Positions 7,694 through 43,196 of a DNA stretch of 64,000 nucleotides are shown here, one piece after another (position 1 is the stretch's first letter; the number at the start of each line of letters is the position of its first letter). The notes under the pieces are model-generated. The model worked only from the letters and a program-made list of their open reading frames with translations. It was not told where the DNA came from and did no database searches. The stretch lies in the NCBI GenBank assembly GCA_944389385.1, contig CALXMC010000004.1, forward strand, positions 8,254-72,253, given 5' to 3'. A program made the translations under genes and the position numbers. This DNA is from an uncultured Alphaproteobacteria bacterium (GTDB lineage: Bacteria; Pseudomonadota; Alphaproteobacteria; Rs-D84).

Positions 7694-8374
7694 TTACATA
7701 TCGTTTATGATGTGCCAAATTGCATAATTTGCGGCCATCAAACCAAATGTTCCCGTTACAGTTATGATCGATCCGAAAACGCGCGCGTCATCCGTCGGTG
7801 TGGCGGGTTCAGTTGAATACACCACATCAAAATCAGGCAAATTCTCTGCGCGTACCAACTTTCTGATTTTTGCGGCCAATGGACAAACGGTTGTTTTTGA
7901 TATTTTTGCAATTTTTATATATCTGGGGTTGGTTTTGCGTGCCGCGCCCATACTGGAAATAAACGGGACGTTTCGTGCCAAGCACCATTTGTACAGCGCG
8001 ATTTTTGACGGAACCGTATCTATGGCGTCAATTACAAAATCGGGCGTCACATTTAATTCTGTTGCGTCGTCAAAAAAAGCCTTTATCGCGGTGACATGCG
8101 TGTCTGGATTTATGTCATGGATGCGCGCACTGGCAACATCGACCTTTGCTTTGCCAATGGTGGCGTCGGTTGCAAAAATTTGTCGGTTGATATTTGATTC
8201 TTCGATTGCGTCTGAATCAACAATGATGATATTACCGACGCCTGTACGGGCCAATGCCTCGATGGCGAAAGAACCGACCGCACCGCATCCGACAACCATA
8301 ACGGTCGCCTTTTGCAATTTTTCTATGCCGGTATCGCCAAATAATAAACGGGTTCTGTGTAATCTGTCACTCAT
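7694..8374 (-). CDS. tcdA: tRNA threonylcarbamoyladenosine dehydratase (ThiF/MoeB E1-like, TcdA/CsdL)
   Basis: Rossmann GxGxxG (VVGCGAVGS). ThiF-family body (DSDAIEESNINRQI...). 4-nt overlap with upstream tatD. Confidence 0.7.
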   Translation of the reverse strand: MSDRLHRTRLLFGDTGIEKLQKATVMVVGCGAVGSFAIEALARTGVGNIIIVDSDAIEESNINRQIFATDATIGKAKVDVASARIHDINPDTHVTAIKAFFDDATELNVTPDFVIDAIDTVPSKIALYKWCLARNVPFISSMGAARKTNPRYIKIAKISKTTVCPLAAKIRKLVRAENLPDFDVVYSTEPATPTDDARVFGSIITVTGTFGLMAANYAIWHIINDM

Positions 8375-9147
8375 TTCAAAATCCCAATGGTGTTTTTATA
8401 AATTGTATTGGTAACTTCATCCAAATCAACAGATTTTATTTCTGCCACGCGTCGCGCCACAGACATTACTTCAACCGGATTGGCGTCGTCACTTTCGATT
8501 AAAATACGCGACATTGGCGTTTGACGAACGGTGTCGATTAAACGGCCACGGCGACCGTCCATAATCATCGGCGAATAAGAAAAATAAAAACCGTACCCGT
8601 CCGCTAAAGTACGCATAATATCGATCGAGCCTGCAAACGCATGCGCAACCATCGCGCGCGGCAATCGGTTGCGACGCGATTTTAATATTTGCAATACGCG
8701 GTTCCACGCGCCAACGCAGTGTATAAACGCGGGGCGTGAAAATTCAGCCGCCATATCCAAACAATCGATAAAAATATTTTCCTGTAATTCTGGGGCAGGG
8801 CGATATTTATCCAAACCGATTTCACCAACCATAATGTCGGGGAATTCAGTCAAAATTTCGCGCATACGTGTTGCCCAATTGGACGCAATATTTTGAACAT
8901 ACCACGGATGAACGCCAACCGCACCATAAACACCGGGAACATTACGCGCAATGCGCAACACATCCGCCCAATCCGCCGGATTTGTTCCGTTGCATACCGC
9001 GCCACATACGCCAACATCCGCGGCGCGCGCCATTACATACGCCACATTGGACACATTTTGTAAATGACAATGTGCATCAAAGTATTTCTGCATGTAAACA
9101 TTATCCACCCCCGCATACAAAAAATCAAGCCCGCAAAACTGTATCAA
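8371..9147 (-). CDS. tatD: TatD-family metal-dependent hydrolase/DNase
   Basis: N-terminal FDAHCHL motif. TatD-like histidine/aspartate pattern throughout. 258 aa. Confidence 0.7.
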   Translation of the reverse strand: MIQFCGLDFLYAGVDNVYMQKYFDAHCHLQNVSNVAYVMARAADVGVCGAVCNGTNPADWADVLRIARNVPGVYGAVGVHPWYVQNIASNWATRMREILTEFPDIMVGEIGLDKYRPAPELQENIFIDCLDMAAEFSRPAFIHCVGAWNRVLQILKSRRNRLPRAMVAHAFAGSIDIMRTLADGYGFYFSYSPMIMDGRRGRLIDTVRQTPMSRILIESDDANPVEVMSVARRVAEIKSVDLDEVTNTIYKNTIGILK

Positions 9148-9175
9148 AGAATGTCGTTGTATATGTAAATATAAC

Positions 9176-9226
9176 TTGACACAGTGTCAGGTCGCGTGAT
9201 ATTCTGACATCGTGTCAGAACAGTGG
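9176..9226 (+). promoter_or_regulatory. Sigma70-like promoter overlapped by two palindromic operators upstream of the TetR gene
   Basis: TTGACA (9176-9181), 16-nt spacer, GATATT (9198-9203). Palindromes TGACACAGTGTCA (9177-9189) and CTGACATCGTGTCAG (9204-9218). Confidence 0.5.
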
Positions 9227-9240
9227 GGAAGGGAATCAAA

Positions 9241-9876
9241 ATGCCAAACGTTACACATGGTGATAAACGCAGGGCTGAAATCGTACGCGCATGTCGCGAA
9301 TTGTATCAAACGATGTCGTTCAAAGACATTACAATCAAAGAAATCAGCAAATACACCAGTTTTTCCAGACCATCCATTTATAATTATTTTACAACCAAAG
9401 AAAGCATTTTTCTGGAAATATTCCGTGAAGAATACGCCCTTTGGTGTGATGATATGGACGCCATAATAACAAAATACAAAAAACTTAGTGTAAAAAAAAT
9501 TGCGGACAAATTGGCGCAAACACTGGAAAACCGCCCCGTGTTATTAAAATTGCTGTCTATGAATCTGTATGATTTGGAAGAAAATTGTTCGTTATCCGAC
9601 TTAACAACGTTCAAGCGTGAATACCGGCGTGCTTTGGATACAGTCGAACGTTTATTGACGGTATATTTCCCGCGTATGCACAAATCGGACAGGGAACGTT
9701 TTATATACATATTCTTTCCGTTTATGTTCGGGCTTTATCCATACGCGAATGTTACGCCAAAGCAAAAACAAGCGATGATTGCGTCTGGGATAAAATTCCC
9801 AACCAAACGTGTTTATGATTTTGCATATCAAACAATATTTTCATTGTTAATCAACCAAGGGGAAACAAATGAATAG
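9241..9876 (+). CDS. TetR-family transcriptional regulator
   Basis: N-terminal HTH (FKDITIKEISKYTSFSRPSIYNYFTTKESIF) typical of TetR. RBS GGGAAGGGAA upstream of ATG at 9241. Confidence 0.75.
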   Translation: MPNVTHGDKRRAEIVRACRELYQTMSFKDITIKEISKYTSFSRPSIYNYFTTKESIFLEIFREEYALWCDDMDAIITKYKKLSVKKIADKLAQTLENRPVLLKLLSMNLYDLEENCSLSDLTTFKREYRRALDTVERLLTVYFPRMHKSDRERFIYIFFPFMFGLYPYANVTPKQKQAMIASGIKFPTKRVYDFAYQTIFSLLINQGETNE

Positions 9877-10360
9877 TATTTTATCTTCTGTTCTTATTGC
9901 GTATTTTTCTGCAACGGGCACAACGGCAAATGTTGCGCAAAAATTGGCGTCGGCACTGGATGCGCCCATTTATGAAATCCAGCCCGCCCAACCATATACA
10001 GATGCGGATTTGGATTGGAACGATGAATCCAGTCGTTCATCTTTGGAAATGGATGGGAAAATACCGTATCCTGAATTGGCGGATTTGGATGCGCCGGTAA
10101 AGGATTACGACACGATATTTTTGGGATTCCCGATATGGTGGGGCACATCGCCCAAAATTGTAAATCAGTTTGTAAAGACCTATGACCTGACGGGCAAGAA
10201 AGTGATTTTATTTGCGACGTCTGGTTCCAGTGGTCTGGGCGATACCGCATCTGATTTATCGCAAGACGCCACCGGCACCCCCGAAATTATAAACGGCCGG
10301 CGTTTCCCGGCCAGTGTCAGCACAACCGAACTGAAAACCTGGGCTGAAAGCATAAAATAG
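9869..10360 (+). CDS. Flavodoxin
   Basis: IAYFSATGTTANVAQKLA FMN-binding N-terminus. ~160-aa flavodoxin fold with a W-rich loop (FPIWWG). Confidence 0.7.
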   Translation: MNSILSSVLIAYFSATGTTANVAQKLASALDAPIYEIQPAQPYTDADLDWNDESSRSSLEMDGKIPYPELADLDAPVKDYDTIFLGFPIWWGTSPKIVNQFVKTYDLTGKKVILFATSGSSGLGDTASDLSQDATGTPEIINGRRFPASVSTTELKTWAESIK

Positions 10361-10375
10361 CAAAGGGGGCAACAA

Positions 10376-11371
10376 ATGAAAACGGCAACAGCAATAGTTT
10401 TAACTTTAATCGGAATCACAGCAATCGCATTTGGCATACACAAGTATTATGAAACAAAAATGAAATCGGAGGATAAAATGAAAAACACACCTGCCAAGGT
10501 ATATTATGTCAAAGAAATCACACCGGAAAATCTGATAAAAATCTATGACGCGTTGGGCGTTGAATTAAAGGGCAACGTCGGCGTCAAAGTATCCACCGGC
10601 GAAGCCGGATCACGCGGTTATTTGAAACCTGATTTAATCGGGCCATTGGTGCAAAAGTTAAATGGCACGATTATAGAATGCAATACTGCATACGCCGGGC
10701 AGCGTAACACTGCGGCCGATCACTTGCGGGTTGCCGCGGAACACGGTTTCACAAAAATCGCAAACGTCGATATTATGGACGCAGATGGCGAAATGAAAAT
10801 TCCCGTCAATAATGGAAAGCACTTGAAATACAACCTGGTCGGGACGCATTTGGATAACTATGATTCTATCTTGAACCTGGCGCATGGCAAAGGACACGCG
10901 ATGGGCGGATTTGGTGCAAATTTGAAAAACCAATCTATTGGTATCGCGTCCAGAAATGGCAAAGCGTACATCCATTCTGCTGGATTCACAGCGGATCCAG
11001 ATGCCGCTTGGTCTAATTTACCACAGCAACAGGCGTTTATAGAATCTATGGCCGAGGCCGCAAAATCAGTCAGCGATTATTTCGCTTCACAAAACAAGCA
11101 GATAGTTTATATAACTGTGATGAACTTTTTATCTGTGGATTGCGATTGTGACGCGCATCAGACAGATCCTGTTATGGCGGACTTGGGCATTGTTGCATCC
11201 ACTGACCCGGTTGCAAACGACCAAGCGTTTGTGGATATGATATACGCATCCACCGACCCAGGCGCCAAGAAATTACAAGAACGTATCGACCGGCAAATGG
11301 GACGGCACATATTGCCGTACGCAGAATCAATTGGATTGGGAACAACAAAATACGAACTGATAGAATTATAA
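10376..11371 (+). CDS. DUF362-domain protein with N-terminal membrane anchor
   Basis: Conserved core (GNVGVKVSTGEAGSRGYLKPDLIGPLVQKL...) resembles DUF362. N-terminal TM helix. Co-oriented with flavodoxin and TetR. Confidence 0.5.
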   Translation: MKTATAIVLTLIGITAIAFGIHKYYETKMKSEDKMKNTPAKVYYVKEITPENLIKIYDALGVELKGNVGVKVSTGEAGSRGYLKPDLIGPLVQKLNGTIIECNTAYAGQRNTAADHLRVAAEHGFTKIANVDIMDADGEMKIPVNNGKHLKYNLVGTHLDNYDSILNLAHGKGHAMGGFGANLKNQSIGIASRNGKAYIHSAGFTADPDAAWSNLPQQQAFIESMAEAAKSVSDYFASQNKQIVYITVMNFLSVDCDCDAHQTDPVMADLGIVASTDPVANDQAFVDMIYASTDPGAKKLQERIDRQMGRHILPYAESIGLGTTKYELIEL

Positions 11372-11375
11372 AACA

Positions 11376-11402
11376 AAAACCGCCCCACCGGCGGTTTTAT
11401 AA
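11376..11402 (+). terminator. Rho-independent terminator
   Basis: AAACCGCCCCACCGGCGGTTTTAT immediately after the stop at 11371. Confidence 0.6.
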
Positions 11403-11487
11403 TTGTTGCATGACCTGATTCTTTTTTCAACAGCATCGCTGCCCAGACAATTTACCTGTTTGCTGTTAAAAAGCGGGACGGGGCGCC

Positions 11488-12750
11488 ATGGTAAATCTGA
11501 TAGATATTTCTGAAAAAGATGTTGTATACTTTGCGATAAAGGAATGCGATATGTCGGGAATTATACAACAAAAACAGTTGAAAAAATTAAATCGTATAAC
11601 AGACGCTGATTTTCATTTTGTTCCTGCGAATAAAAATCAGTTTGGGGTAAAATATTACGAACACGCATGTGCAAATGATGAAGAGTTTCAGCGAATTGCC
11701 GGCGATTTAAACCAGCGTCAAAATGTTTTCTATACATGCCTGGAATATCCGGGGGGTAATATCTCGATTGCCGTTGTGCAAAACGAACTGGATAAAAATC
11801 GCATAGAAAATATAATGTGGGGACGCGTACCAGATCTGGCGGACACCAAACCAATTGGCAAGATTCATGGTAACGATGTTTATCTGGAATTAATTACGAC
11901 CCAGTCTGGCAAAGCCTCGGGCGTTGTCATGCGCCACGGTCGTGCAATTGCTGTTGTTGTTATTAATGGTCATCGTTTGCCTTTTTATGTATCGTCTGGA
12001 CTGGCCGGCAAGGAAGCGGAATACGGTATTGCATCTGGTAAATGGTACCCATTGCAGGGAATTTCTGACAGTGGTTGGTTGAACAAAATGCCGGACATGA
12101 ACAAAAATCCATATCCAGAACTGGATCAGGTTTGTGCAATGCTAGAGAAAAAATATCCCGCGGCGATATTGAAACAACGCGCATTGAATAATGAATTGCC
12201 CGCCGCGGATAGAGATGCGTTGTTAAAAACTGCCAACAGCGAATTTGTCGAAGGAACCCCGTACAATGAACGCAGCCTATATCAGTATTACAGAAATCAT
12301 ATAATATATTTGCCGGCGGTAATTGATGCGTGGCGGACCGCACCAAAAGATTTTCTGGAAATTACGGGCGGGGCATTACAGATTCACGAACTTAATACAT
12401 TAGAAAAAATTCGAAAAACGGATTTAATGGCTAATTCAACCCTAGAAGATAATGTCGTTTGGCTTACCCCTGTCCCCAGCCAGCTAGCGACCCAAACCGG
12501 TGCAGAAACAACCCAGGGAATACAAAGACAGCTGGATAAACTTGGTCTAAGCGGTGCGTTTTTTTATTCGGATAATAATGACGGGATTGGCCTGCCTGTT
12601 GAAACATTTGATAATTATTTCTATGCCAACCAGGTACAAAACCTGGTCGCGGCAACAAAAAGAATCAATGCCCAGCCACGAAAGCAAGGTAAACAAGACT
12701 CTGTTATACAAATTGCCCTGGACAAGGTAAAAAAGATGTTTAACGGCTAA
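11488..12750 (+). CDS. Hypothetical protein (420 aa)
   Basis: Long ORF with non-repetitive composition. No motif recognised. Confidence 0.45.
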   Translation: MVNLIDISEKDVVYFAIKECDMSGIIQQKQLKKLNRITDADFHFVPANKNQFGVKYYEHACANDEEFQRIAGDLNQRQNVFYTCLEYPGGNISIAVVQNELDKNRIENIMWGRVPDLADTKPIGKIHGNDVYLELITTQSGKASGVVMRHGRAIAVVVINGHRLPFYVSSGLAGKEAEYGIASGKWYPLQGISDSGWLNKMPDMNKNPYPELDQVCAMLEKKYPAAILKQRALNNELPAADRDALLKTANSEFVEGTPYNERSLYQYYRNHIIYLPAVIDAWRTAPKDFLEITGGALQIHELNTLEKIRKTDLMANSTLEDNVVWLTPVPSQLATQTGAETTQGIQRQLDKLGLSGAFFYSDNNDGIGLPVETFDNYFYANQVQNLVAATKRINAQPRKQGKQDSVIQIALDKVKKMFNG

Positions 12751-12821
12751 CCCGGCATATTTGCGGCACAAGAAATTAGAAAAGCACAAGCGGTTCAATC
12801 AATGGTTGAATTTTACCCCGT

Positions 12822-15480
12822 GTTTTTTGCCCGAACGAAAACATGTGTATATTGCTATTAAAGAACAATATTTGCTATACCGGCCGCATATTCAACTCTG
12901 GGTTGAATCTCGGGTCAGGTTTGTGCGGACTTCGAAACATAGACGAAGATTTTTACAGCACGACATATTTTCGCACGCGCCAAAAAAACCGCAAGTGAAT
13001 TCAACCTGTGGTTGTATTGTGTTGTAAATATAACATAATTATGCGAATTTAGACTAAAATACAACTCATACTAGAATCCAATCTTGTTTTTTAGCGGTTT
13101 TACCAATATCATCCAAACGTACTCCAAAACCGAAGTACAGCCCGTGGTTGTCTTGGACACAGTGCTTCAAGATTTTATGTGATAGTCTATTAGGTTGTAA
13201 AACATGATAAAATTCAACCTACGGTTGTATTTTGGGTCGGTTTTGTGCGGGTGGAGAAATGCAAACAAATGTTTTTTACGCCCCGACATGTCTTCGTATG
13301 CGCCAGAAAACAGCGACTATATTCAACCACAAGTTGTATTATGTTGTAAATACAACGTCACGATGCGAATTTATACTAAAATACAACTTATACTAGAATC
13401 TAATCTTGATTTTCAGGGCTTTATCAACGTCATCCAAACGCACCCGAACCCCGAAGTACAACCTATGGTTGAATTTCGGGTTAGTTTTATACGGGTAACA
13501 AAGCGCGGACAAATATTTTTACGCCCCGACATGTCTTCGCACGCGTCAGAAAACCGCAAGTGAATTCAACCTGTGGTTGTATTTTGTTGTAAATATAACA
13601 TAATTATGCGAATTTATAATAAAATACAACTTTTGGTTGAATTGAATCTTGTTTTTTTGCGGGTTTACAAACATCGTCCAAACACACTCCAAAAAATGAA
13701 GCGCAACCTGTGGTTGAATTTCGGGTCAGTTTTATGCAGGTGACAAAGCGTGGACAAATGTTTTTACAAGCCGATATATTTTGTACACATCAGAAAACAA
13801 CGGTCATATTCAACCACAGGTTGTATTATTGTGTGAACACAACACCATAATGCGAATTTATACTAAAATACAACTTATACTAGAATCTAATCTTGATTTT
13901 CAGGGCTTTATCAACATAGACCAAACGCACCCAAAAAACGAAGTACAGCCCGTGGTTGTCTTGGACACGGTGCTTCAAGATTCAATGTGATAGTCTATCA
14001 GGTTGTAAATCATGATAAATTCAACCCACGGTTGTATTTTAGGTCGGTTTTGTGTGGATGACGAAAGGCGGACAAATGTTTTTGCAAGCCGACATATCTT
14101 CGTACGCAGCAGAAAACAACAACTGAATTCAACTTGTGGTTGTATTTTGGTTCAAACACAACATCAAAATGCGAAATTAGACTAAAATACAACTTATGGT
14201 TGAATTTCGGGTCAGTTTTATGCAGGTGACAAAGCGTGGACAAATGTTTTTACAAGCCGATATATTTTGTACACATCAGAAAACAGCGGCCACGTTCAAC
14301 CATAGGTTGTATTATTGTGTGAACATAACATCATAATGCGAATTTTAAATAAAATACAACTTATGATTGAATTTCGGGTCAGTTTTATGCAGGTGACAAA
14401 GCGTGAAAAAATGTTTTTACAAACCGGCACATCTTCATACATGCCGGAAAATCGCAAGTGAATTCAACCTGTGGTTGTATTTTGTTGCAAAAATAACGTC
14501 ACGATGCGAAATTTGACCAAAATACAACCTATACTAGAATCTAATCTTGATTTTCAGGGCTTTATCAACGTCATCCAAACGCACCCGAACCCCGGAGTAC
14601 AACCTATGGTTGAATTTCGGGTTAGTTTTATACGGGTAACAAAGCGCGGACAAATGTTTTTACAACCCGATATATTTTCGCACACACCAGAAAACAACGG
14701 TCATATTCAATCACAGGTTGTATTATTGTGTGAACACAACACCATAATGCGAATTTAGACTAAAATACAACCTATACTAGAATCTAATCTTGATTTTCAG
14801 GGCTTTATCAACGTCATCCAAACACATCCGAAAACCGAAGTACAGCCCGTGGTTGTCTTGGGCACGGTGTTTCAAGTTTTAACATGATGGTCTATCAGGT
14901 TGTAAAACACAGCAAGATTCAACCCATGATTGAATCCTGGGGCAATTTTGTGCGGGTAGCAGAATACGGACAAATATTTTTACGCCCCGACATGTCTTCG
15001 CATGCGGCAGAAAACAGCGACCATGTTCAACCATAGGTTGTATTATCTTGCAAACACAACATCACAATGCGAAATTAGACTAAAATACAACCTATGCTAG
15101 AATTGTATCTTGATTTTCAGGGCTTTATCAACATAGCCCAAACGCAACATATGGCTGAATCCTGGGTCAATTTTGTGCGGGTAGCAGAATACGGACAAAT
15201 ATTTTTACGCCCCGACATGTCTTCGCACGCGTCAGAAAACCGCAAGTGAATTCAACCACGGGTTGTATTGCGTCGTTAATATAACATCATTATGCGAAAT
15301 TTGACCAAAATACAACTTATAGTTGAATTTAATCTTGATTTTCAGGGCTTTATCAACATCATCCAAACGCACCCCGAAATACAACCCGCAGTTGAATCAG
15401 GCCCGAGATTTTTGATACTTGTAACGCCTTGAATGCAAGCCATATCACAATTCGTGTCTGTCTTGGGCGCGGCGTTTTGA
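12822..15480 (+). repeat. Non-coding tandem array of >=10 degenerate 165-330-bp units rich in short palindromes
   Basis: Box ATTCAACC-NNN-GGTTGTATT starts at 13028, 13321, 13564, 13808, 14127, 14294, 14462, 14705, 15025, 15249. Each unit also carries GTTGTAAATACAAC-like palindrome, ATGCGAATTTAGACTAAAATACAAC, optional ~78-bp insert (CTTGATTTTCAGGGCTTTATCAAC...) and a second oppositely oriented box (ACAACCTATGGTTGAAT). Units are ~85-90% identical with indels. Confidence 0.8.
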
Positions 15481-15565
15481 TTCTTTTCCACGGATGTTAA
15501 TATTTTATTTTTATTCTGATTTGTTATTCAGTGACGCGCCATGTTGCCAATCCTTAATAAAATTA

Positions 15566-15593
15566 TTGACAATCTGTTTTTTTTTTCTAGGAT
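15566..15593 (+). promoter_or_regulatory. Sigma70-like promoter for the 123-aa ORF
   Basis: TTGACA (15566-15571), 16-nt T-rich spacer, TAGGAT (15588-15593). Followed by RBS AAGGTG 7 nt before ATG at 15623. Confidence 0.45.
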
Positions 15594-15622
15594 TACAAAA
15601 AAACTGATACAAAAGGTGTAAT

Positions 15623-15994
15623 ATGTTTTTGCGATTAAGATATTATTTCAAAACAGACCGCAAAATACGCGTCCAGGACAAACAAGAATATGCCGACCAG
15701 CGTAAAAAGTTAAAAAATTTAGACGACATACTGGAATACCGGTGCGAAGAGATAACGTTCCCATTTGATGATCCGGCTTTCTACAGTTGGTGGGGATGTA
15801 TTAAACGTTCTACGACCGGGGCAGAATACTATTGTCCTGGGTTTAGTTTTGATGTTCCTTGCGAACATGAACGCAGTTGTGTACGAGGACCTGATAATAG
15901 TAAATTTGTTAGGGCGCGACAAGAATATTTTAGACAAAAGCAACTTGTTCGTGATTTTTGGCGCAATCGTATGCGCGAACGTGTAAAAGGATAA
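15623..15994 (+). CDS. Small basic Cys-containing hypothetical protein embedded between repeat arrays
   Basis: 123-aa ORF with good RBS and upstream promoter. Five Cys (C..C..C..C..C). Highly basic termini. No family recognised. Confidence 0.45.
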   Translation: MFLRLRYYFKTDRKIRVQDKQEYADQRKKLKNLDDILEYRCEEITFPFDDPAFYSWWGCIKRSTTGAEYYCPGFSFDVPCEHERSCVRGPDNSKFVRARQEYFRQKQLVRDFWRNRMRERVKG

Positions 15995-16249
15995 AATATC
16001 ACGGGCATAAATGCGCCAGTGATACTGAACCGCAACGACCCGCGGGCGAATTAAGCCAATCAAACTATTTTCTGTACATGCCGTGAATGTCTGGCCGGCT
16101 GTGTGCGGTAGCGGGCGGTTGCCGTTTCGCAGAAGAATCAGGTGTCTTGCCGTAATTTGCGACATATTTACGTATTCTTACATATTGTAATTTTTGCGCC
16201 CTCGCGGGGGCAGCGTTCAGCGCGTTACAAGCATCAAAAAACTCGGACA

Positions 16250-16640
16250 CGCTTCAACCGCGGGTTATATTTCGGGATTTTGGTTCGTTGGGGTGATATT
16301 GCCCCCCCGAAAATCAAGATTGGATTCAACCATAAGTTGTATTTTAGTCTAAATTCGCATTATGACGTTGTGGTTGCGACACAATACAACCTCTGGTTGA
16401 TTTCACCCACCGTTTCCTGACGGTTATAAAAACATACCGGGTTGTAAAAACTTGTCCGCATTTCGTCATCCGCACAAAATGGGCTGTGCATTTAATCGTG
16501 GGGTGTATTTGTTGTGTAATACAACCTCTGGTTGAATTCTGGTGTCGTTTTCTGGGGGGTATTGTGGACTTAAAATGTATATCTGTGCCTCGTTTTTTTT
16601 GCCGCGTTCCGTCACAAAATTCAACCTGTGGCTAACAATC
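16250..16640 (-). repeat. Inverted-orientation copies of the same repeat unit
   Basis: 16330-16415 reads ATTCAACCATAAGTTGTATTTTAGTCTAAATTCGCATTATGACG...AATACAACCTCTGGTTGA, the reverse complement of the unit. 16465-16500 matches RC of TTTTGTGCGGATGACGAAA-GGCGGACAAAT. Confidence 0.65.
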
Positions 16641-18081: not shown

Positions 18082-18253
18082 ATTTTATCCTTTTGGGGTA
18101 TGCGTTGTAATTATACGATTTGGGTTAAAAACATTCAAGACGAATTCGATAATTTATACAAAAGGGTAATAATTCTCATAAAAAATATCAAAGTGTGTGG
18201 AATTTTAAGTATAGTAAAACAAACCCGCCTTGACAGCGGCAGGTTGAAATCTT

Positions 18254-18298
18254 TGGCTCGGGCAACTGGACTCGAACCAGTGACATACGGATTAACAG
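18254..18298 (-). other. 45-bp fragment identical to the 3' part of tRNA-Asn, starting in the anticodon loop (att site direct repeat)
   Basis: TGGCTCGGGCAACTGGACTCGAACCAGTGACATACGGATTAACAG is identical to 36220-36264. Similarity extends ~8 bp further (GAAAT-CTT). Confidence 0.85.
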
Positions 18299-18958
18299 CA
18301 AGTTCTTGATTTCAGGGCTTTTTTTACGATGTGTCGTGTTAGCCCAGATTTCCGCCACTTTTTGCACATATCTGTGTATGCGCCGTATAGCTGTTTTTTA
18401 GTATGTAGCAAAAAAATTGCACCCCCGTATACCCACAAGTGTCTAAATCATACAAAAATGACGTCCGCCAAAATGAAATTACGGAATGCGTTTATCGGGC
18501 AATAATCATACCTTGAATGCGGGTGCCATACGGTTGATTTCTGTTTTGTCAAATTTATTATACCACAAATCGCACTAAAAAGAAAGAGGTATCACATCGG
18601 ATATAAAAATAAGAGGTTTATTATTGGTATTAGCACCCTAAAAAACATGAAAAATCCCAAAATTCGATTCGGGGCAAAAGTTTGATTTTTTTGTCGGGTG
18701 CCGTCGATGAGCCGTTGTTTCAAAAACTGACAAAATATGATTTAATACTATTTAGACGTGTTTTAATGTAGGTTTGATACATTGTGATACAAATTTTTTT
18801 AGTAAAAACAGGACGTTTTTTGCTAGTTTTGCCAGACTTTTACTTTTTTATGTGCTATAAATTATATGTACAGATATAAAAAGTTGTTGTGATATCAGAT
18901 TGTATAAAGCGACCTTTTTATATCCTACAAACCATATTGAAACCCAAAGGAGAATAAC

Positions 18959-19168
18959 ATGGATTACCAATTCATGAACCATGGGGGACAAGAGAGAGAT
19001 ACAAGACAATACGCCCTGAACAAGGAAGCGTTTAAAGACAGACTGTTTACACCGAAACAATTAGCTGACTATCTTTGTTCGTCTGTTTCGGCATTAAGCC
19101 AATATCGTGCACTGGGGATTGGACCTGCGTACTTCAAGATCGTCAAAATGGTACGTTACCCCAAATAA
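18959..19168 (+). CDS. AlpA/Xis-like HTH excisionase-regulator
   Basis: 69 aa. FTPKQLADYLCSSVSALSQYRALGIGPAYFKI resembles the AlpA-family HTH. Immediately upstream of the integrase. Confidence 0.55.
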   Translation: MDYQFMNHGGQERDTRQYALNKEAFKDRLFTPKQLADYLCSSVSALSQYRALGIGPAYFKIVKMVRYPK

Positions 19169-19266
19169 GTGGCTGGAACAAAAAAAGAAGCGATAAAAAA
19201 TAGCTGTTTCTGCTGGATATTATGTTTTTATCGTGCATTGTGTGTTTGTAATAAAGGAGTGCACAC

Positions 19267-20475
19267 ATGGCAGAACAATGGAAATGCTATACAAAGCCGT
19301 TTCGGGACACTTGGATACATCTGTTGCATTCAGATGTTAACCTGCAGGTCAGCGACGGCACCATCCCAGGATTATTCCTGCGATATTCTGCGGCAACACG
19401 CAATATTCGGTTTTTCCTGGGGTGTAAAATAGATAACAAGAAATGCAATATTTTTATAGGTCGCTACAGAGATTATTCTATCAAAGATATTCGTGACATG
19501 GCGTGGAATATGCGGCATCAAATTGCCCAAGGCGAAGACCCACGCAGAAAAAGAATAGAAGAACAACTGAAAGAAAAAGAAACGCTGGGCGAACAGGTAA
19601 AAGTACTGTTCCCACAATATATGGACAAATATTCCAAAATATACAAGAAGCCACGAACCCAGGATTCTAATTGGGGGCAATATAGATTATATTTAGCGCC
19701 TATGTTTGATAAGCTGTACATACGCCAAATAGAAGAAAAGCATGTAATGGACGCCTATGCCAAGTGGGTAAAGAAAACCTCATTCTCAACCGCGAACAAA
19801 GCGCTGTCTCTGTTCTCTAATTTCTGGGATTGGTGCGAAATGTATAAATACGTAGACCGCAATACAAACCCATGCAAGTATGTCCGCAAAGGTTCAAACA
19901 AAGTTTATAAGCCACAAATACTGGACCAAGACGGTTATCGTGCATTATCGCATGCGCTGGATGTTGGGCCCCAGGTATCTAAAATGCACCCACGGTTATT
20001 CAATGCGTTGCGGGTGCTGATGCTGACTGGGGGTCGTGCGTCTGAAATAACCGGGCTAGAGGTAGAAGAACTTGCGCTTATGCACAAGGTAATACACCTG
20101 AAAGACAGCAAGACCGGCGCCCGGGATGTAAAACTGTCTGACGCAGTTATACCATACTTGCAGGCTGCGCTGGATGAAGCAACCGCACTGGGCAGCAAAT
20201 ATGTATTCCCAGGTGTTGGGAACGAGCACAGACCAATAAACAACATCCGCAAGCCATTTGAATGGGCACTGTCATATGCCAAGCTGCCACATATGCGAAT
20301 ACACGACCTGCGACATTCGTTTATCAGTATGGGTGCAAATATCGGTGAAAATATAGCTGCCATGAAAGAAGCAGCCGGCCATTCCCGTATAACCACCACC
20401 GAAGGATATACCCACATCATGGACAGCAGCACCTATCGTGCCATCAATAACGTTGCAAATGCAATATGTGCCTAA
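19267..20475 (+). CDS. int: Tyrosine site-specific integrase
   Basis: C-terminal catalytic region with R (GGRASE), HDLRHSF, HSRITTTEGYTH (H-x-x-R...Y). 402 aa; true start may be downstream. Confidence 0.8.
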   Translation: MAEQWKCYTKPFRDTWIHLLHSDVNLQVSDGTIPGLFLRYSAATRNIRFFLGCKIDNKKCNIFIGRYRDYSIKDIRDMAWNMRHQIAQGEDPRRKRIEEQLKEKETLGEQVKVLFPQYMDKYSKIYKKPRTQDSNWGQYRLYLAPMFDKLYIRQIEEKHVMDAYAKWVKKTSFSTANKALSLFSNFWDWCEMYKYVDRNTNPCKYVRKGSNKVYKPQILDQDGYRALSHALDVGPQVSKMHPRLFNALRVLMLTGGRASEITGLEVEELALMHKVIHLKDSKTGARDVKLSDAVIPYLQAALDEATALGSKYVFPGVGNEHRPINNIRKPFEWALSYAKLPHMRIHDLRHSFISMGANIGENIAAMKEAAGHSRITTTEGYTHIMDSSTYRAINNVANAICA

Positions 20476-20535
20476 ATGGTGCATGTTGCATTTCAGTAAA
20501 ATAAAAATAGGTTCTGTAAAACCTCTTTTGATTGG

Positions 20536-20569
20536 GGGGAACGGCGACCTCGAGACCTTGTTACACACA
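20536..20569 (+). repeat. ~34-bp imperfect direct repeat flanking the Fic gene (copy A)
   Basis: GGGGAACGGCGACCTCGAGACCTTGTTACACACA versus copy B GGGTAACGGCGACCCCGCCACCTTGCTACACAC (~85% identity). Confidence 0.6.
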
Positions 20570-20692
20570 GGTTTGAAAAATTGGTTCGCAGGTTCGCACT
20601 TTGGGTGTTTTAATAGTAATTACAATATGATAAGTGCGAACCTGGGGTGCGAACCTGGTTCGCACCTAAGAACATATTTCCTTATAAATCGA

Positions 20693-21799
20693 TTATCGTT
20701 TTTCTGGCAAACTATATTTGCGGCCTTTGTTTTGACCGGTGGCAACCAAGAAACCTTTGTTAACCAATGCGACAAATAGTTGGCGTACGCGCTGTGGCGA
20801 CTTGCCCGTTATAGAAATTGCATCCGCAGCAGTAACATAACCCAGCGTGCATAACTTTTCAGCCATAGCGATAAAGAACGTCCGTTCTGTTTTGTTCAGG
20901 TCGTCTATATTCAAATCGCTACATTTATCGCTAGTTATATCGCTAGTTTTTATTTCAGGATTAGCGATATTTATAACCATGTCGTCACCTTTCAGCGAAT
21001 TGTTTTCGCCCAGCAACAGATTTCCAAAGAACAAGTTCAGGTATTTATAGGTCCGTTTGATACCGCGCGGTATATTTTCATAGTTGGCACGAACCAAGGC
21101 ATTGCGAAAATATTCTGCATAATCCTTGAATAATTCGTTATCAGCAGCAAAGCCTTTATTGTGCAGATACTTGATTGCAAATACGGCGATTGTGCGCGTA
21201 TTGCCTTCGCGAAATGGATGAATTTGCCACAGGCCAGACACGAATTGCGCGATATGTTCAACTTGCGCACGTGTGTTAAGCGTACTGTAATCAAAACGTT
21301 CTTCGCGGTCAAAGTCGTATTCCAGCGTTGGCATAATGTCCATATGGCTGGCATAGTGCACAGTATCCCCCATCAGCACGTTTTCTGCCTTGATAATATC
21401 CTTGGTACGAAGATTCCCAACCCAGTGTTCAGGCAATGCCGCATTAAACAAATACTTGTGAATAGACAGCAAAGTAGTCGGCGCAAAGGTAAAAGACGAA
21501 TTGCTTAACAGTTCTGCAATACGGTTGGAAACGGTGTCGGCCTCCCAGTATTCAATACCCAGTTCGTCACCCTCTGGGGTGCGGTAATACTGGCGCAGCG
21601 ACTGATGAACTTCGTCATGACTCAGCTTGCCTTCGATATTATCACGCGCCACCTGGTACAGATAACGCGATGGTGTCAACCCATCAACCTGTTGCAGGCC
21701 AATGGCGATATCCCAATTACGTGCCTTTTCTTGTTTAGATGGCTCTTGGGCTGTTTTGTATTCGCTGATAAAATCTGAAAACTTTGCCATATCTTTCAT
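20693..21799 (-). CDS. Fic/Doc-family protein (AMPylator-like) with C-terminal winged-helix domain
   Basis: Fic motif HPFREGNTRT (HPFx[DE]GNxR). 368 aa. C-terminal wHTH-like segment (LVALVNKGFLVATGQNKGRKYSL). Confidence 0.75.
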   Translation of the reverse strand: MKDMAKFSDFISEYKTAQEPSKQEKARNWDIAIGLQQVDGLTPSRYLYQVARDNIEGKLSHDEVHQSLRQYYRTPEGDELGIEYWEADTVSNRIAELLSNSSFTFAPTTLLSIHKYLFNAALPEHWVGNLRTKDIIKAENVLMGDTVHYASHMDIMPTLEYDFDREERFDYSTLNTRAQVEHIAQFVSGLWQIHPFREGNTRTIAVFAIKYLHNKGFAADNELFKDYAEYFRNALVRANYENIPRGIKRTYKYLNLFFGNLLLGENNSLKGDDMVINIANPEIKTSDITSDKCSDLNIDDLNKTERTFFIAMAEKLCTLGYVTAADAISITGKSPQRVRQLFVALVNKGFLVATGQNKGRKYSLPEKR

Positions 21800-21877
21800 G
21801 CCTTACACTATTGATTATATCCAAGAAATACAAAAATTCCAGTTATTTAATGGGTCCTGTGACGGGCGTTTCATATA

Positions 21878-21911
21878 CGGGTAACGGCGACCCCGCCACC
21901 TTGCTACACAC
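21878..21911 (+). repeat. ~34-bp imperfect direct repeat flanking the Fic gene (copy B)
   Basis: See copy A. The two copies bracket 20693..21799. Confidence 0.6.
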
Positions 21912-21962
21912 TGATAAAAAAACAAGACCGCATGCCGCACTGTCTAATTTCATAAATCAGAA

Positions 21963-21996
21963 TTGATTTCATGTTGATTTCAATATTGATTTCATA
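21963..21996 (+). promoter_or_regulatory. Three tandem TTGATTTCA repeats at ~12-bp spacing in the divergent Fic/Nudix intergenic region
   Basis: ATTGATTTCATGTTGATTTCAATATTGATTTCATAGG. Followed by (AGT)5 microsatellite and a purine-rich tract. Confidence 0.4.
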
Positions 21997-22277
21997 GGTA
22001 AGGAAAGTAGTAGTAGTAGTAAAGAAAAGCAAAAGATAATAAAAATAAAAGATAAAGAAAAGGTAGTGAAAGAAGAAATGCACAAAAAATTGTTGAAAAC
22101 TTACGTAAAACTGTTGATATGTTGTTAGTTATGTCTAAATCATAAAATATCGCAAAATTTAACCTTAAATGTATCGTGGTGTATCTCTATGTATAAACGC
22201 TAAAATCCGCAGAAAATAAGGACTTTACAAACCCAAAAAAACAGTGCAAGATGGTGTTGTAAAGGAAAGGATTCAGT

Positions 22278-22664
22278 GTGAAAGTAACAGCTGCGATTTT
22301 TAGAAATGAGGACCGGGTTCTGCTTATGCGACGGGCGGCTGATCAGCCGTTGGCGGGCGAATGGGAATACCCCGGTGGCAAGTTTGAAGATGGCGAAGAC
22401 GGCCCAACATGCCTGCGCCGGGAACTGGCCGAAGAGTTGGGAATCGATGCGCAAATTGGCGACCTGATTACCATCGCAAAACATACAACAGATTCTGGCA
22501 AGGTTATCGAACTGCACACATACGAAATCAAATCCTTCACCGGCGAAATTCAACTGCGCGTCCACGATGATATGCATTGGGTGCCAGTCCAGGACTTGCC
22601 ATTCCACCCACAACTCCCCGCCGACCAAATCGTATCTAAAACATTACAAGCCAAAGGAAAGTAA
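22278..22664 (+). CDS. Nudix hydrolase (MutT-like)
   Basis: Nudix box GGKFEDGEDGPTCLRRELAEELGI (Gx5Ex7REUxEExGU). 128 aa. Stop 1 nt before next start. Confidence 0.8.
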   Translation: MKVTAAIFRNEDRVLLMRRAADQPLAGEWEYPGGKFEDGEDGPTCLRRELAEELGIDAQIGDLITIAKHTTDSGKVIELHTYEIKSFTGEIQLRVHDDMHWVPVQDLPFHPQLPADQIVSKTLQAKGK

Positions 22665-22665
22665 A

Positions 22666-24642: not shown

Positions 24643-24646
24643 CCAT

Positions 24647-25480: not shown

Positions 25481-25548
25481 CATATTGTTCCCTTGACTTT
25501 ATGGTTTGTTTTGGTCTAACTTTCTTACTGAGGAAAGGTTCAAGAACA

Positions 25549-30593: not shown

Positions 30594-30597
30594 CGGT

Positions 30598-30942: not shown

Positions 30943-30962
30943 GATATAGGATAAGATGAAAA

Positions 30963-31676: not shown

Positions 31677-31728
31677 AAATAAAAAGAAAAAATAATGAAT
31701 AAATAGCCAAGTATCATTTTAAATAATG

Positions 31729-34017: not shown

Positions 34018-34034
34018 ATGTTTTTTATAACGTT

Positions 34035-37468: not shown

Positions 37469-37826
37469 ACACATCGTGGTTAATTTTTGGGGTTGGTTGT
37501 TTTGCGGATTATTCGACCAAATTCTTCTGGGGATATGTGGGCAAACGATATAATTTTGGCTATTGTTATGCACGAAGGCCAATGCAATTTACCATATTTG
37601 TCTATGCGTTTGCTTTTATTAAACGCGGTTGCGTCCAAACCACACGCACGTGCCAATCCTGACCGGCTTAGTCCATTTGATGCGGCGATATAATCAACCG
37701 CAGCCCAAATGCTTGCATGATTCATAATCCTTCCTTTTAGGTATAAATCCAGGAACAAATTCAAGGATAGGTTGTATTTTACCATATAATTCGCGTCTTG
37801 TATAATGGTTATTATTCCTATTGTTT
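37469..37826. repeat. Left copy of a ~360-bp perfect inverted repeat carrying an 81-aa HTH gene
   Basis: Reverse complement of 42391-42758. Encoded 101-aa tracked ORFs are identical. Confidence 0.8.
37480..37725 (-). CDS. Small XRE/phage-repressor-like HTH DNA-binding protein (copy 1)
   Basis: MNHASIWAAVDYIAASNGLSRSGLARACGLDATAFNKSKR...GKLHWPS. Start set at internal Met with RBS AGGAAGGA. 81 aa, same length as the paralog at 42951. Confidence 0.55.
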   Translation of the reverse strand: MNHASIWAAVDYIAASNGLSRSGLARACGLDATAFNKSKRIDKYGKLHWPSCITIAKIISFAHISPEEFGRIIRKTTNPKN

Positions 37827-42390: not shown

Positions 42391-42758
42391 AAACAATAGG
42401 AATAATAACCATTATACAAGACGCGAATTATATGGTAAAATACAACCTATCCTTGAATTTGTTCCTGGATTTATACCTAAAAGGAAGGATTATGAATCAT
42501 GCAAGCATTTGGGCTGCGGTTGATTATATCGCCGCATCAAATGGACTAAGCCGGTCAGGATTGGCACGTGCGTGTGGTTTGGACGCAACCGCGTTTAATA
42601 AAAGCAAACGCATAGACAAATATGGTAAATTGCATTGGCCTTCGTGCATAACAATAGCCAAAATTATATCGTTTGCCCACATATCCCCAGAAGAATTTGG
42701 TCGAATAATCCGCAAAACAACCAACCCCAAAAATTAACCACGATGTGTTTTTATATAC
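42391..42758. repeat. Right copy of the ~360-bp inverted repeat
   Basis: Reverse complement of 37469-37826. Confidence 0.8.
42492..42737 (+). CDS. Small XRE/phage-repressor-like HTH DNA-binding protein (copy 2, identical to copy 1)
   Basis: Identical protein to 37480..37725. ATG at 42492 preceded by AGGAAGGA. Confidence 0.55.
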   Translation: MNHASIWAAVDYIAASNGLSRSGLARACGLDATAFNKSKRIDKYGKLHWPSCITIAKIISFAHISPEEFGRIIRKTTNPKN

Positions 42759-42950: not shown

Positions 42951-43196
42951 ATGATAACAAATTCTATGTTTTGGCATGCGATAGATAACCTGGCGGCGTC
43001 ACGTAACATGTCTTGTTCGCGTATGGCGCAAATCAGTGGTATGGATATAACTGCACTGAATAAATGCAAGCGTCGCGGTGCAGATGGCAAACCACATTGG
43101 ATGTCGGTCGGCAGTTTAGTCAAAATCATGAATGCCACAAATACCACTTGGCGTGAATTTGCAGATTTTTTCCCACCCGACCGCGGCCGTGAATAA
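42951..43196 (+). CDS. Paralogous small HTH DNA-binding protein (81 aa)
   Basis: MFWHAIDNLAASRNMSCSRMAQISGMDITALNKCKRRGADGKPHWMSVGSLVKI shares the W..(V/I)D.(I/L)AAS...S.S..A...G(L/M)D.TA.NK.KR...GK.HW.S pattern. Confidence 0.5.
   Translation: MITNSMFWHAIDNLAASRNMSCSRMAQISGMDITALNKCKRRGADGKPHWMSVGSLVKIMNATNTTWREFADFFPPDRGRE

What the first reader, a model, noticed from the sequence alone, without database searches (positions are those of the whole stretch)
12822..15480. 2.7-kb tandem array of palindrome-rich 165–330-bp units (not CRISPR, not coding)
Ten or more degenerate units each contain TTCAACC-NNN-GGTTGTATT, GTTGTA-AA-TACAAC, ATGCGAATTTAGACTAAAATACAAC and an oppositely oriented ACAACCTATGGTTGAAT. 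This gives about 40 copies of an AATACAAC-type half-site in both orientations. Long and short unit variants differ by a discrete ~78-bp module. The density of phased palindromes suggests a protein-binding array (centromere, iteron or titration site) or tandem small-RNA genes rather than random decay.
Basis: seen in the sequence. Interest (0 to 1): 0.7.

Follow-up and report, generated by a model that had tools for sequence, protein, structure and literature searches.

The report
Strain-variable array of repressor-operator palindromes
A 2.6-kb non-coding stretch in an uncultured gut Alphaproteobacterium consists of about ten diverged tandem copies of the promoter/operator region of a small Cro-like repressor gene, giving about 30 palindromic sites that probably bind that repressor; the number of copies differs greatly between strains, and no natural operator array of this size has been described as far as I know.

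Summary
Window 12794-15396 holds 10 tandem units of 167-322 bp, and one inverted unit lies at 16253-16536. The units are built from four modules (A, B, C, D). Every module junction is a 17-bp palindrome, WWCAAC-N5-GTTGWW (core CAACC-YRY-GGTTG). There are 30 such sites in 4 kb against 0.34 expected by chance.

It is not coding, not CRISPR, not in Rfam, and not an integron: there is no IntI, the stems have no extrahelical bases, and the arrays occur as inverted arms. I found no support for structured sRNAs.

Only the palindromes are conserved in related species: 11 sites in L003 and about 49 sites over 5.8 kb in L005. Site number runs from about 2-5 to 59 between strains. In L155 the arrays form inverted arms around a 123-aa gene, and that gene is inverted in L143.

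The best reading is an amplified operator array that binds the HTH repressor, acting as a sink or a higher-order complex, and that changes by recombination between units. Binding and function are inferred, not shown.

The parts
12794..15396 (+). Main tandem array. Two leader palindromes (12794-12810, 12891-12907) and a D-like leader are followed by 10 units. About 33 palindromic sites of the form WWCAAC-N5-GTTGWW.
13000..13321 (+). Unit 1, modules A-B-C-D (322 bp)
13322..13564 (+). Unit 2, modules A-B-D (243 bp)
13565..13808 (+). Unit 3, modules A-B(variant)-D (244 bp)
13809..14127 (+). Unit 4, modules A-B-C-D (319 bp)
14128..14294 (+). Unit 5, modules A-D (167 bp, the minimal unit). A is a 77-bp element: TTCAAC-N5-GTTGTA, then 43 nt, then TACAAC-N5-GTTGAA.
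14295..14462 (+). Unit 6, modules A-D (168 bp)
14463..14705 (+). Unit 7, modules A-B-D (243 bp)
14706..15025 (+). Unit 8, modules A-B-C-D (320 bp)
15026..15250 (+). Unit 9, modules A-B(short)-D (225 bp)
15251..15396 (+). Unit 10, modules A-B (terminal). This corresponds to the single unit present in most related assemblies.
15397..16252 (.). Central unique segment between oppositely oriented units. It is found in the opposite orientation in strain L143.
15623..15994 (+). ORF123: a Cys-rich basic 123-aa protein with no family assignment. It is 100% identical in more than 100 assemblies. A promoter-like TTGACA-16-TAGGAT lies at 15566-15593.
16253..16536 (-). Inverted unit (modules b-a plus a D-like part). 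It is the short right arm; in L155 this arm is about 3 kb long with 23 sites.
11551..12750 (+). 399-aa protein of unknown fold that neighbours the arrays in the window, L003 and L005. It is not part of the repeat, and distant orthologs lack sites.
37480..37722 (-). HTH1' gene (XRE/Cro-type, about 80 aa). Its operator-position palindrome TACAAC-CTATC-CTTGAA is at 37760-37776.
42441..42457 (+). Solitary palindrome TACAACCTATCCTTGAA, 36 bp upstream of the HTH1 start codon. Its flanks are homologous to module A and the start of B/D.
42493..42737 (+). HTH1 gene, identical to the copy at 37480-37722 but inverted
42951..43196 (+). HTH2 paralog upstream of ligA. Its ortholog in L003 lies 2.7 kb from that genome's array.

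Best explanation
The array is a tandem amplification, variable between strains, of the promoter/operator segment of a small XRE/Cro-type HTH regulator.

Each unit carries 2-4 copies of a 17-bp two-fold-symmetric site: half-sites aaTTCAAC or aaTACAAC, 5-bp spacing, and a centre biased to alternating pyrimidine/purine. The same site lies in operator position upstream of the HTH genes. At the A|B junctions the right arm reads CTAGAAT. That overlaps a TAGAAT -10-like hexamer, exactly as in the ortholog's promoter.

The most likely mechanism (inferred) is that HTH dimers occupy the roughly 30 sites here and up to 59 in another strain. The locus would then be a high-capacity sink or higher-order repressor-DNA complex around the small gene ORF123. 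Array length would set how much free repressor remains for its own promoter and other targets.

The arrays grow, shrink, reshuffle modules and invert the central segment by recombination between units. The breakpoints fall on the palindromes.

Shown: the repeat anatomy, the site enrichment, the homology to the HTH upstream region, the HTH fold, conservation of the sites only between species, and the copy-number and orientation polymorphism.

Inferred: that the HTH binds these sites, that binding has a titration or regulatory effect, and the recombination mechanism.
For: Anatomy and enrichment.

Only the palindromes are conserved in orthologous loci. L003 has 11 sites in 1.15 kb with no TRF repeat, and L005 has about 49 sites in 5.8 kb, while the inter-site DNA is not alignable.

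The arms are the best-conserved columns across 44 unit copies from 3 strains: 1.70 against 1.12 bits, with 19 of 5000 random placements as good.

The centre is YRY or RYR in 70 of 92 sites against a 27% background. This preference is symmetric under reverse complement, as expected for a duplex site bent at its centre.

The two solitary sites in the other 60 kb both lie 36-39 bp upstream of HTH start codons.

The HTH upstream regions from this window and from a 67% ortholog (L162) each hit 12-13 array units at E 1e-3 to 6e-6, against 0.03-0.10 hits for shuffled queries. The shared block is GCGAAWT-N5/6-YAAAATWCAAC-N5-NTWGAAT.

Synteny: the HTH genes sit next to the site in L007 and 2.7 kb from the array in L003. 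In the window the nearest copy is about 3 kb away once the tRNA-Asn island is discounted.

Promoter-like TTTAGA/TAGACT-N16-18-TAGAAT hits occur at six A|B junctions, all on the + strand pointing towards ORF123.

Polymorphism: one unit in L001, L149, L154, L156 and L157; 10 units here; a different module order in L143, whose flanks are 97% identical; 36 + 23 sites in inverted arms in L155; ORF123 inverted in L143.
Against: No binding data exist, and the operator assignment rests on position and homology only.

The HTH operators have an imperfect right arm (CTTGAA, CTAGAA, TTAGAA), whereas most array sites are perfect palindromes.

No HTH gene was found within the 17 kb held for L005. The link between P0199 and that species rests only on a shared sample.

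L005 and L003 units share only the palindrome with the HTH promoter, not the GCGAATT...TAAAAT part.

Copy number varies from about 2-5 to 59 sites, and single-unit strains are common. That is equally what a neutral, recombination-prone satellite would show.

Promoter-like hits overall are only about 2 sd above shuffles.

Copy numbers come from metagenome assemblies, which can mis-assemble repeats, although the units are 65-85% identical and three independent assemblies agree on multi-kb arrays.
Confidence: 0.55

Rival explanations
1. A lineage-specific intergenic mosaic repeat, like REP/BIME in enterobacteria or RIME in rhizobia. In this reading a selfish or neutral palindromic element with modular linkers has piled up at one recombination-prone locus. 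The resemblance to the HTH upstream region would exist because a copy of the element sits there, and the array would have no binding-related function.
For: The array is a mosaic of modules joined at palindromes, with alternating site polarity. Module D is itself dyad-symmetric. Copy number and module order are hypervariable, and there are inversions. Small extra site clusters occur at other intergenic positions near the locus in L157, L150 and L007. Rearrangement breakpoints fall at sites or half-sites.
Against: The element is not dispersed. In the other 60 kb of the window the only copies are the two at HTH genes. No RAYT or Y1 transposase, or any other transposase, is nearby. The HTH upstream architecture is kept in a 67% ortholog in a different genomic context, so it is part of that gene rather than an inserted element. 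The palindrome persists across species while everything else decays.
Confidence: 0.22
2. Recombination sites of a site-specific (tyrosine) recombinase. This would be an integron-like array of attC sites with micro-cassettes (a CALIN), or a shufflon- or pdif-like set of modules bounded by sites.
For: The boxes fit the integron consensus: ATTCAAC matches RYYYAAC and GTTGAAT matches GTTRRRY, in 7-5-7 geometry. Module A folds as R stem, 5x5 internal loop, L stem and variable tip. Every module boundary and several gene-block boundaries lie at sites or half-sites. The central segment inverts between strains. A 1.14-kb unit made of sites, ORF123 and more sites occurs in an unrelated context, L151.
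Against: There is no IntI. The only integrase in 64 kb is a P4-type enzyme with an arm-binding domain, and it belongs to the tRNA-Asn island. The stems have no extrahelical bases. The 'cassettes' are 91 bp with no ORFs. The arrays occur as inverted arms. L005 units are a single site plus a third half-site rather than attC-like pairs. The central triplets vary, which would block tyrosine-recombinase exchange between most site pairs. All the rearrangements seen can also arise by homologous recombination between units that are 65-95% identical.
Confidence: 0.1
3. Tandem small-RNA genes: each unit has a promoter (right half of A), a transcript of about 130 nt (module D), and a weak hairpin plus U-run (the next R-L site).
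For: There are promoter-like hits at the A|B junctions, and the R-L sites are followed by TATTTT. The units derive from a real promoter region.
Against: There is no Rfam match even at E up to 10. The putative transcripts fold no better than shuffles, with z from -0.45 to +0.75. The would-be terminator stems are only 5-7 bp. The transcribed part is not conserved in L003 or L005, and only the palindromes are.
Confidence: 0.06
4. A cis-acting chromosomal site such as a centromere or partition site, a replication origin, a titration locus, or a polar fork barrier, bound by a protein other than the HTH. One candidate would be the adjacent 399-aa protein of unknown fold.
For: The 399-aa gene is adjacent to arrays in three species despite different surroundings. 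The arrays have arms of opposite polarity. Gene orientation and cumulative GC skew switch near 9-10 kb in the window.
Against: There is no DnaA-box cluster and there are no par or rep genes. Orthologs of the 399-aa protein below 50% identity have no sites nearby. Several assemblies have the sites and ORF123 without that gene. The model shows no recognisable DNA-binding fold. A chromosomal cis-site would not be expected to vary from about 2-5 to 59 copies.
Confidence: 0.07

Closest known systems
Operators of Cro/C1-XRE repressors and of restriction-modification controller (C) proteins, such as the phage 434 ACAA-N6-TTGT operators and the C.Esp1396I and C.AhdI C-boxes
   Same: A small dimeric HTH protein whose fold matches these proteins. 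A two-fold-symmetric 13-17-bp site in its own promoter. A centre that is not a fixed sequence but is biased to flexible YR steps. The half-site ACAAC/GTTGT resembles the 434 ACAA half-site; that comparison is from my own knowledge and was not tested here.
   Different: Known systems have 1-6 operators in one promoter. Here the operator-bearing segment is repeated 10-20 times, giving 30-59 sites over 2.6-8 kb, away from the regulator gene, and the number varies between strains.
Repeated decoy or titration sites for DNA-binding proteins: plasmid P1 incA iterons, E. coli datA, and synthetic or eukaryotic tandem decoy arrays (PMC3322331, PMC8599769, PMC7826281)
   Same: Many copies of a regulator's binding site outside its target promoters, so that copy number would set the level of free regulator.
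   Different: The natural bacterial examples I know of have about 5-10 sites and are tied to replication initiators. Here the presumed ligand is an XRE regulator, the sites are embedded in 167-322-bp mosaic units, and titration is unproven.
REP/BIME (enterobacteria) and RIME (rhizobia) intergenic mosaic elements
   Same: Imperfect palindromes in alternating orientation, joined by a small set of linker modules, in non-coding DNA that is prone to recombination.
   Different: Those elements are dispersed at hundreds of loci in clusters of about a dozen palindromes or fewer, and REPs have a cognate RAYT transposase. Here there is essentially one locus with up to 59 sites and no transposase, and the unit is homologous to a gene's promoter.
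Integron attC sites and CALIN cassette arrays
   Same: RYYYAAC and GTTRRRY boxes, 7-5-7 spacing, a hairpin with an unpaired central spacer, a length of 79 bp, and an array arrangement.
   Different: There is no IntI, there are no extrahelical bases and no ORF cassettes, the arms are inverted, and the paired architecture is not conserved in relatives.
Plasmid centromeres made of tandem repeats (F sopC with 12 x 43 bp; R1 parC)
   Same: A tandem array of short palindromic protein-binding sites.
   Different: No partition genes are nearby, the location is chromosomal, the units are much longer and mosaic, and copy number is hypervariable.

Membership tests
Integron attC / CALIN | R'' (RYYYAAC) and R' (GTTRRRY) boxes, with L''/L' boxes 5-6 nt inside them | tested here: met
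   ATTCAAC-N5-GTTGTAT ... ATACAAC-N5-GTTGAAT, always exactly 60 bp apart, in 11 copies
Integron attC / CALIN | A single-strand hairpin with an unpaired central spacer and extrahelical bases that mark the recombinogenic strand | tested here: not met
   The hairpin and the 5x5 internal loop are predicted, but the R and L stems are perfect with no bulged bases, and both strands fold alike
Integron attC / CALIN | An IntI-type integrase nearby (needed for a complete integron, though not for a CALIN) | tested here: not met
   The only tyrosine recombinase in 64 kb is P4-type with Arm-DNA-bind_3, and it belongs to the tRNA-Asn island
Integron attC / CALIN | Co-oriented sites separated by gene cassettes | tested here: not met
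   The spacers are 91-250 bp, have no ORFs and are homologous to each other. The arms are inverted in L155 and in the window
CRISPR array | Short identical repeats separated by unique spacers, with cas genes or a leader | tested here: not met
   The 'spacers' are 65-96% identical to each other, spacing runs from 60 to 135 bp, and there are no cas genes
REP/BIME-like mosaic element | Imperfect palindromes in alternating orientation with a limited set of linkers | tested here: met
   Modules A, B, C and D are joined at polar palindromes
REP/BIME-like mosaic element | Dispersal over many intergenic regions of the genome | tested here: not met
   Outside the locus there are 2 copies in 60 kb, both at HTH genes. 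The whole genome was not available.
REP/BIME-like mosaic element | A cognate RAYT (Y1 HUH) transposase | tested here: inconclusive
   None is present in the window or the fetched loci. The rest of the genome was not searched.
Operator of an XRE/Cro-type repressor | A two-fold-symmetric site of 13-18 bp in the regulator's own promoter region | tested here: met
   The site lies 36-39 bp upstream of the ATG in two window copies, about 93 bp upstream in L007, and in the equivalent position in the 67% ortholog
Operator of an XRE/Cro-type repressor | The regulator has the Cro/C1 HTH fold | tested here: met
   [not shown]
Operator of an XRE/Cro-type repressor | Demonstrated specific binding of the regulator to the site | not testable with these tools
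   This needs EMSA, footprinting or ChIP
Iteron or centromere array | An adjacent rep or par gene whose product binds the repeats | tested here: not met
   The neighbours are DUF362, the 399-aa unknown protein, ORF123 and an S51 peptidase. There is no Rep, ParA or ParB. There is no match in the plasmid or phage collections.
Tandem sRNA genes | A promoter, a terminator, and a conserved or stable RNA structure in each unit | tested here: not met
   There is no Rfam hit. Fold z-scores are -0.45 to +0.75. The sequence is not conserved between species. Promoter-like hits are only marginally enriched.

The most novel reading that the evidence does not exclude
The locus is a natural 'operator sponge' that can be tuned by copy number. 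In this reading, inverted arrays of up to about 60 high-affinity operators for an XRE repressor surround a tiny conserved gene. Recombination-driven expansion, contraction and inversion of the arrays would give heritable strain-to-strain, or even cell-to-cell, changes in free repressor level. Those changes would alter expression of the repressor's regulon, including ORF123 and the 399-aa protein of unknown fold. This would be a form of phase or dosage variation not described in bacteria.
Probability: 0.2. Interest if true: 0.8.

Novelty: new variant of a known kind. Interest (0 to 1): 0.6.

Why it matters
Bacterial regulators are usually pictured with a handful of operators. A chromosomal locus holding 30-60 copies of an operator-like palindrome, amplified from the regulator's own promoter and differing ten-fold or more between strains of one species, would be a natural counterpart of the synthetic decoy arrays used to tune gene expression. 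It would also be a new source of heritable regulatory variation in a gut bacterium.

Even if the array has no function, it documents a bacterial 'satellite' with inverted arms that drives inversions and gene-block shuffling and breaks metagenome assemblies. It also points to three uncharacterised proteins worth testing: the HTH regulator, ORF123 and the 399-aa protein of unknown fold.

Tried and rejected
Rfam, at gathering threshold and at E up to 10: nothing in the region.

Integron reading: the boxes fit, but the defining features fail.

Replication origin: no perfect DnaA box and no cluster. The GC-skew minimum near 10 kb rests on too short a left arm.

ORF123 as the universal partner: it is absent from L003 and L005, and divergent orthologs have no arrays.

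Collection scans. The genome scan for the 25-mer found only one relative, L001, plus one chance hit. The metagenome and viral scans for site pairs returned mostly unrelated coding repeats, with spacings in multiples of 3 and a constant centre. Only L139 and L118 are loosely similar.

Arm covariation as a test for hairpins: weak and confounded by shared ancestry of the copies. The flanking T/A position anti-covaries, which gives the sites their polarity.

Literature searches for the motif, and for integrons in Alphaproteobacteria, gave nothing relevant.

The first D-module conservation analysis mixed both strands and was redone strand-specifically.
Full report

Yes. Tandem Repeats Finder reports overlapping arrays with periods of 167, 225 and 243 bp between 13265 and 15371. 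The repeat finder gives a family of eight 198-nt copies. The most regular landmark is a pair of 17-bp sites, TTCAAC-N5-GTTGTA and TACAAC-N5-GTTGAA, always exactly 60 bp apart. This pair occurs ten times on the + strand (13000 to 15251) and once inverted (16325-16401).

Cutting at these landmarks gives units of 322, 243, 244, 319, 167, 168, 243, 320, 225 and about 146 bp. The 25-mer occurs 11 times in the window and never in shuffles. The core palindrome occurs 30 times in 4 kb, against 0.34 in shuffles and 2 in the other 60 kb. No ORF is conserved, and the longest stop-free stretch is 120 aa.

Four corrections apply:
- The array starts at 12794 and ends at 15396.
- A complete inverted unit lies outside the reported range, at 16253-16536.
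- GTTGTA-AA-TACAAC is exact only once.
- There are two optional modules, not one.

**2. Anatomy**

The alignment of the units resolves four modules:
- A: a 77-bp element bounded by the two sites.
- B: about 75 bp, optional.
- C: about 77 bp, optional.
- D: about 105 bp.

Units are AD, ABD or ABCD. Every junction is a 17-bp site, WWCAAC-N5-GTTGWW, with the core CAACC-NNN-GGTTG.

Most sites are polar. They combine an aaTTCAAC half with an aaTACAAC half, and the two polarities alternate. The central triplet is alternating pyrimidine/purine (TGT, ACA, TAT, ATA, GTA) in 70 of 92 sites, against a 27% background. That preference is symmetric under reverse complement.

Across 44 unit copies from three strains, the site arms are the best-conserved columns: 1.70 against 1.12 bits, and only 19 of 5000 random placements do as well. 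Module D is itself dyad-symmetric.

**3. What it is not**

- Known RNA family: no Rfam family matches, even at E up to 10.
- CRISPR: the 'spacers' are homologous to each other and there are no cas genes.
- Structured sRNA: putative unit transcripts fold no better than shuffles, with z from -0.45 to +0.75. Promoter-like hits are only about 2 sd above shuffles, and the 'terminators' reported are the palindromes themselves.
- Replication origin: there is no DnaA-box cluster.
- Known plasmid or phage feature: nothing similar is in the plasmid or phage collections.

The integron reading deserved a real test. ATTCAAC and GTTGAAT fit RYYYAAC and GTTRRRY, the spacing is 7-5-7, and module A folds as R stem, 5x5 loop, L stem and tip. 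But the reading fails on several counts:
- The stems have no extrahelical bases.
- The only integrase in 64 kb is a P4-type enzyme belonging to a tRNA-Asn island.
- The 'cassettes' are 91 bp with no ORFs.
- The arrays occur as inverted arms.
- The paired-site architecture is not kept in relatives.

**4. Relatives**

A scan of 185,579 species genomes for the 25-mer found one relative, L001, an 'uncultured Alphaproteobacteria' MAG. It has one unit where the window has ten.

Its orthologs led to further arrays:
- L003 (89% identity) has 11 sites in 1.15 kb right after the gene, yet TRF finds no tandem repeat there.
- L005 (77% identity) has about 49 sites in 5.8 kb of gene-free DNA in front of the gene. 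Many are spaced about 105 bp apart, in two arms of opposite polarity.

The inter-site DNA of the three species cannot be aligned; only the palindromes are shared. Orthologs below 50% identity have no sites nearby. Several assemblies carry the sites without the 399-aa gene. So this protein is a frequent neighbour, not an obligatory partner.

**5. Variation within the species**

The 123-aa ORF downstream of the array (15623-15994) is 100% identical in more than 100 assemblies. The usual state is a single A-B unit between the 399-aa gene and ORF123 (L149, L154, L156, L157).

Three assemblies carry large arrays:
- The window itself, with 10 units.
- L143. Its flanks are 97% identical to the window, but its module order is entirely different, and ORF123 lies on the opposite strand.
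- L155. There ORF123 sits between a 4.9-kb direct array with 36 sites and a 3-kb inverted array with 23 sites.

The window's inverted unit at 16253-16536 is therefore a short right arm.

A 1,142-bp block made of sites, ORF123 and more sites also occurs, 98% identical, in an unrelated island-like context, L151. Breakpoints between assemblies fall at sites or half-sites; the homology between the window and L001 begins at TTTTCAAC. Contigs often end just after the 399-aa gene, as expected if the repeat breaks short-read assembly. Exact copy numbers should therefore be confirmed with long reads.

**6. The link to a regulator**

Outside the locus, the only two near-perfect sites in the window are at 37760 and 42441. 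They lie in a pair of identical inverted duplications. Each sits 36-39 bp upstream of the start codon of a gene of about 80 aa. A third paralog precedes ligA at 42951.

The same family occurs in related genomes:
- It flanks the lone site beside the 399-aa gene in L007.
- It lies 2.7 kb from the array in L003.
- In the window, the nearest copy is about 3 kb from the array once the 18-kb tRNA-Asn island is discounted.

The DNA flanking the solitary site is homologous to the array units. The shared block is GCGAAWT-N5/6-YAAAATWCAAC-N5-NTWGAAT-YTA.TC, which corresponds to the right half of A plus the start of B or D.

Used as BLAST queries, the 98-bp upstream region of the window's HTH1 and the 95-bp upstream region of a 67%-identical ortholog from another context (L162-167) each hit 12-13 array units at E 1e-3 to 6e-6. 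Shuffled queries give 0.03-0.10 hits.

The ortholog's site reads TTCAAC-TATGT-CTAGAAT. CTAGAAT is the 'degenerate' arm found at every A|B junction in the array, where it coincides with a TAGAAT -10-like hexamer.

**7. Interpretation**

The array is best read as an amplified promoter/operator segment of this XRE regulator. Its common currency is the regulator's palindromic operator.

The conserved arms, the flexible YR-rich centre and the two-fold symmetry are what one expects for a duplex site bound and bent by an HTH dimer. The 434 operators and the C-protein boxes are the textbook analogues; that comparison is from my own knowledge and was not tested here.

I therefore propose that HTH dimers load onto the roughly 30 sites here, and up to 59 in L155. 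This would create a repressor sink or a higher-order complex around ORF123. Array length would set how much repressor is free, as shown for synthetic or engineered decoy arrays (PMC3322331, PMC7826281, PMC8599769). Expansion, contraction, module shuffling and inversion follow from recombination between the units.

Binding, titration and the recombination mechanism are inferences. A neutral, recombination-prone mosaic repeat of the BIME/RIME type remains a serious rival. A site-specific recombination system is a weaker one.

**8. Novelty and score**

I found no described family or system that matches this: Rfam, Pfam, PADLOC, the plasmid and phage collections and the literature searches all came up empty. 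The closest concepts are operator or decoy arrays and intergenic mosaic elements.

I rate it a new variant of a known kind. Interest is 0.6. The anatomy and the population variation are striking, and the HTH link makes the hypothesis directly testable, but function is unproven and a neutral explanation is not excluded.

Noticed in passing
window 18246-36293: An 18-kb genomic island integrated at tRNA-Asn. It is bounded by a 46-bp identical direct repeat of the tRNA 3' half (18246-18298 and 36212-36266). Its cargo is an AlpA-like gene, a P4-type integrase (19267-20475), Fic, a Schlafen-type helicase, DUF5677 and an Eco57I/ResIII fusion.
   Followed up: partly
window 34035-35576 (-): The island's reverse transcriptase is a clear DRT2 defence RT (PADLOC Drt2, E = 6e-126). 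Its associated non-coding RNA was not looked for.
   Followed up: partly
window 37480-37822 and 42395-42737: Identical inverted duplicates of the HTH1 gene plus its operator bracket a 4.6-kb segment holding NUDIX-ASCH, a MetK gene, tRNA-Lys and two unknown ORFs. The arrangement looks like a possible invertible segment.
   Followed up: no
[not shown]
   Followed up: partly
window 15623-15994 (+); L151 5581-6721: ORF123 is Cys-rich and basic, has only 7 homolog clusters, and is 100% identical in more than 100 assemblies. A 1,142-bp block made of sites, ORF123 and more sites is also found, 98% identical, in an unrelated island-like context. It has no terminal inverted repeats, so it may be a mobile cassette.
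   Followed up: partly
L005 1990-7790 (and L006): A related species has a 5.8-kb gene-free array of about 49 palindromes with a period of about 105 bp (roughly 10 helical turns), in two arms of opposite polarity. GC skew changes sign where the polarity flips. Each unit has a third half-site, GGTTGAAT, about 10 bp before the next full site.
   Followed up: partly
window 13200-15250 (module D copies): Module D is dyad-symmetric: its consensus is 62% identical to its own reverse complement. It carries extra conserved blocks, GGACAAATNTTTTTAC and CAGAAAAC, that the operator model does not explain.
   Followed up: no
L139 2138-5221 (IMG/VR contig); L118 1150-1290: A viral contig carries about ten similar (C/T)ACAACC-N3-GGTTG(T/C)A palindromes in non-coding spacing. 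A GC-rich metagenome contig has five TTCAAC-N5-GTTGAA palindromes clustered upstream of an unrelated small gene. So the palindrome type is used elsewhere as an apparent operator.
   Followed up: partly
L012 12649, 13151, 13652: Downstream of a distant ortholog of the 399-aa gene, ATCAAGCCACGGTTGAT recurs three times at 501-502-bp spacing inside called ORFs. This looks like a tandem duplication of a coding segment.
   Followed up: no
window 8172-12814 compared with L001, L003, L157 and L160: The gene blocks around the locus (TatD-ThiF-DUF378, TetR-flavodoxin-DUF362/PETase, the 399-aa gene, ORF123, MetK) are present, absent, reordered or inverted from one assembly to the next. Site clusters often lie at the block boundaries, so the locus is a hotspot of rearrangement.
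   Followed up: partly
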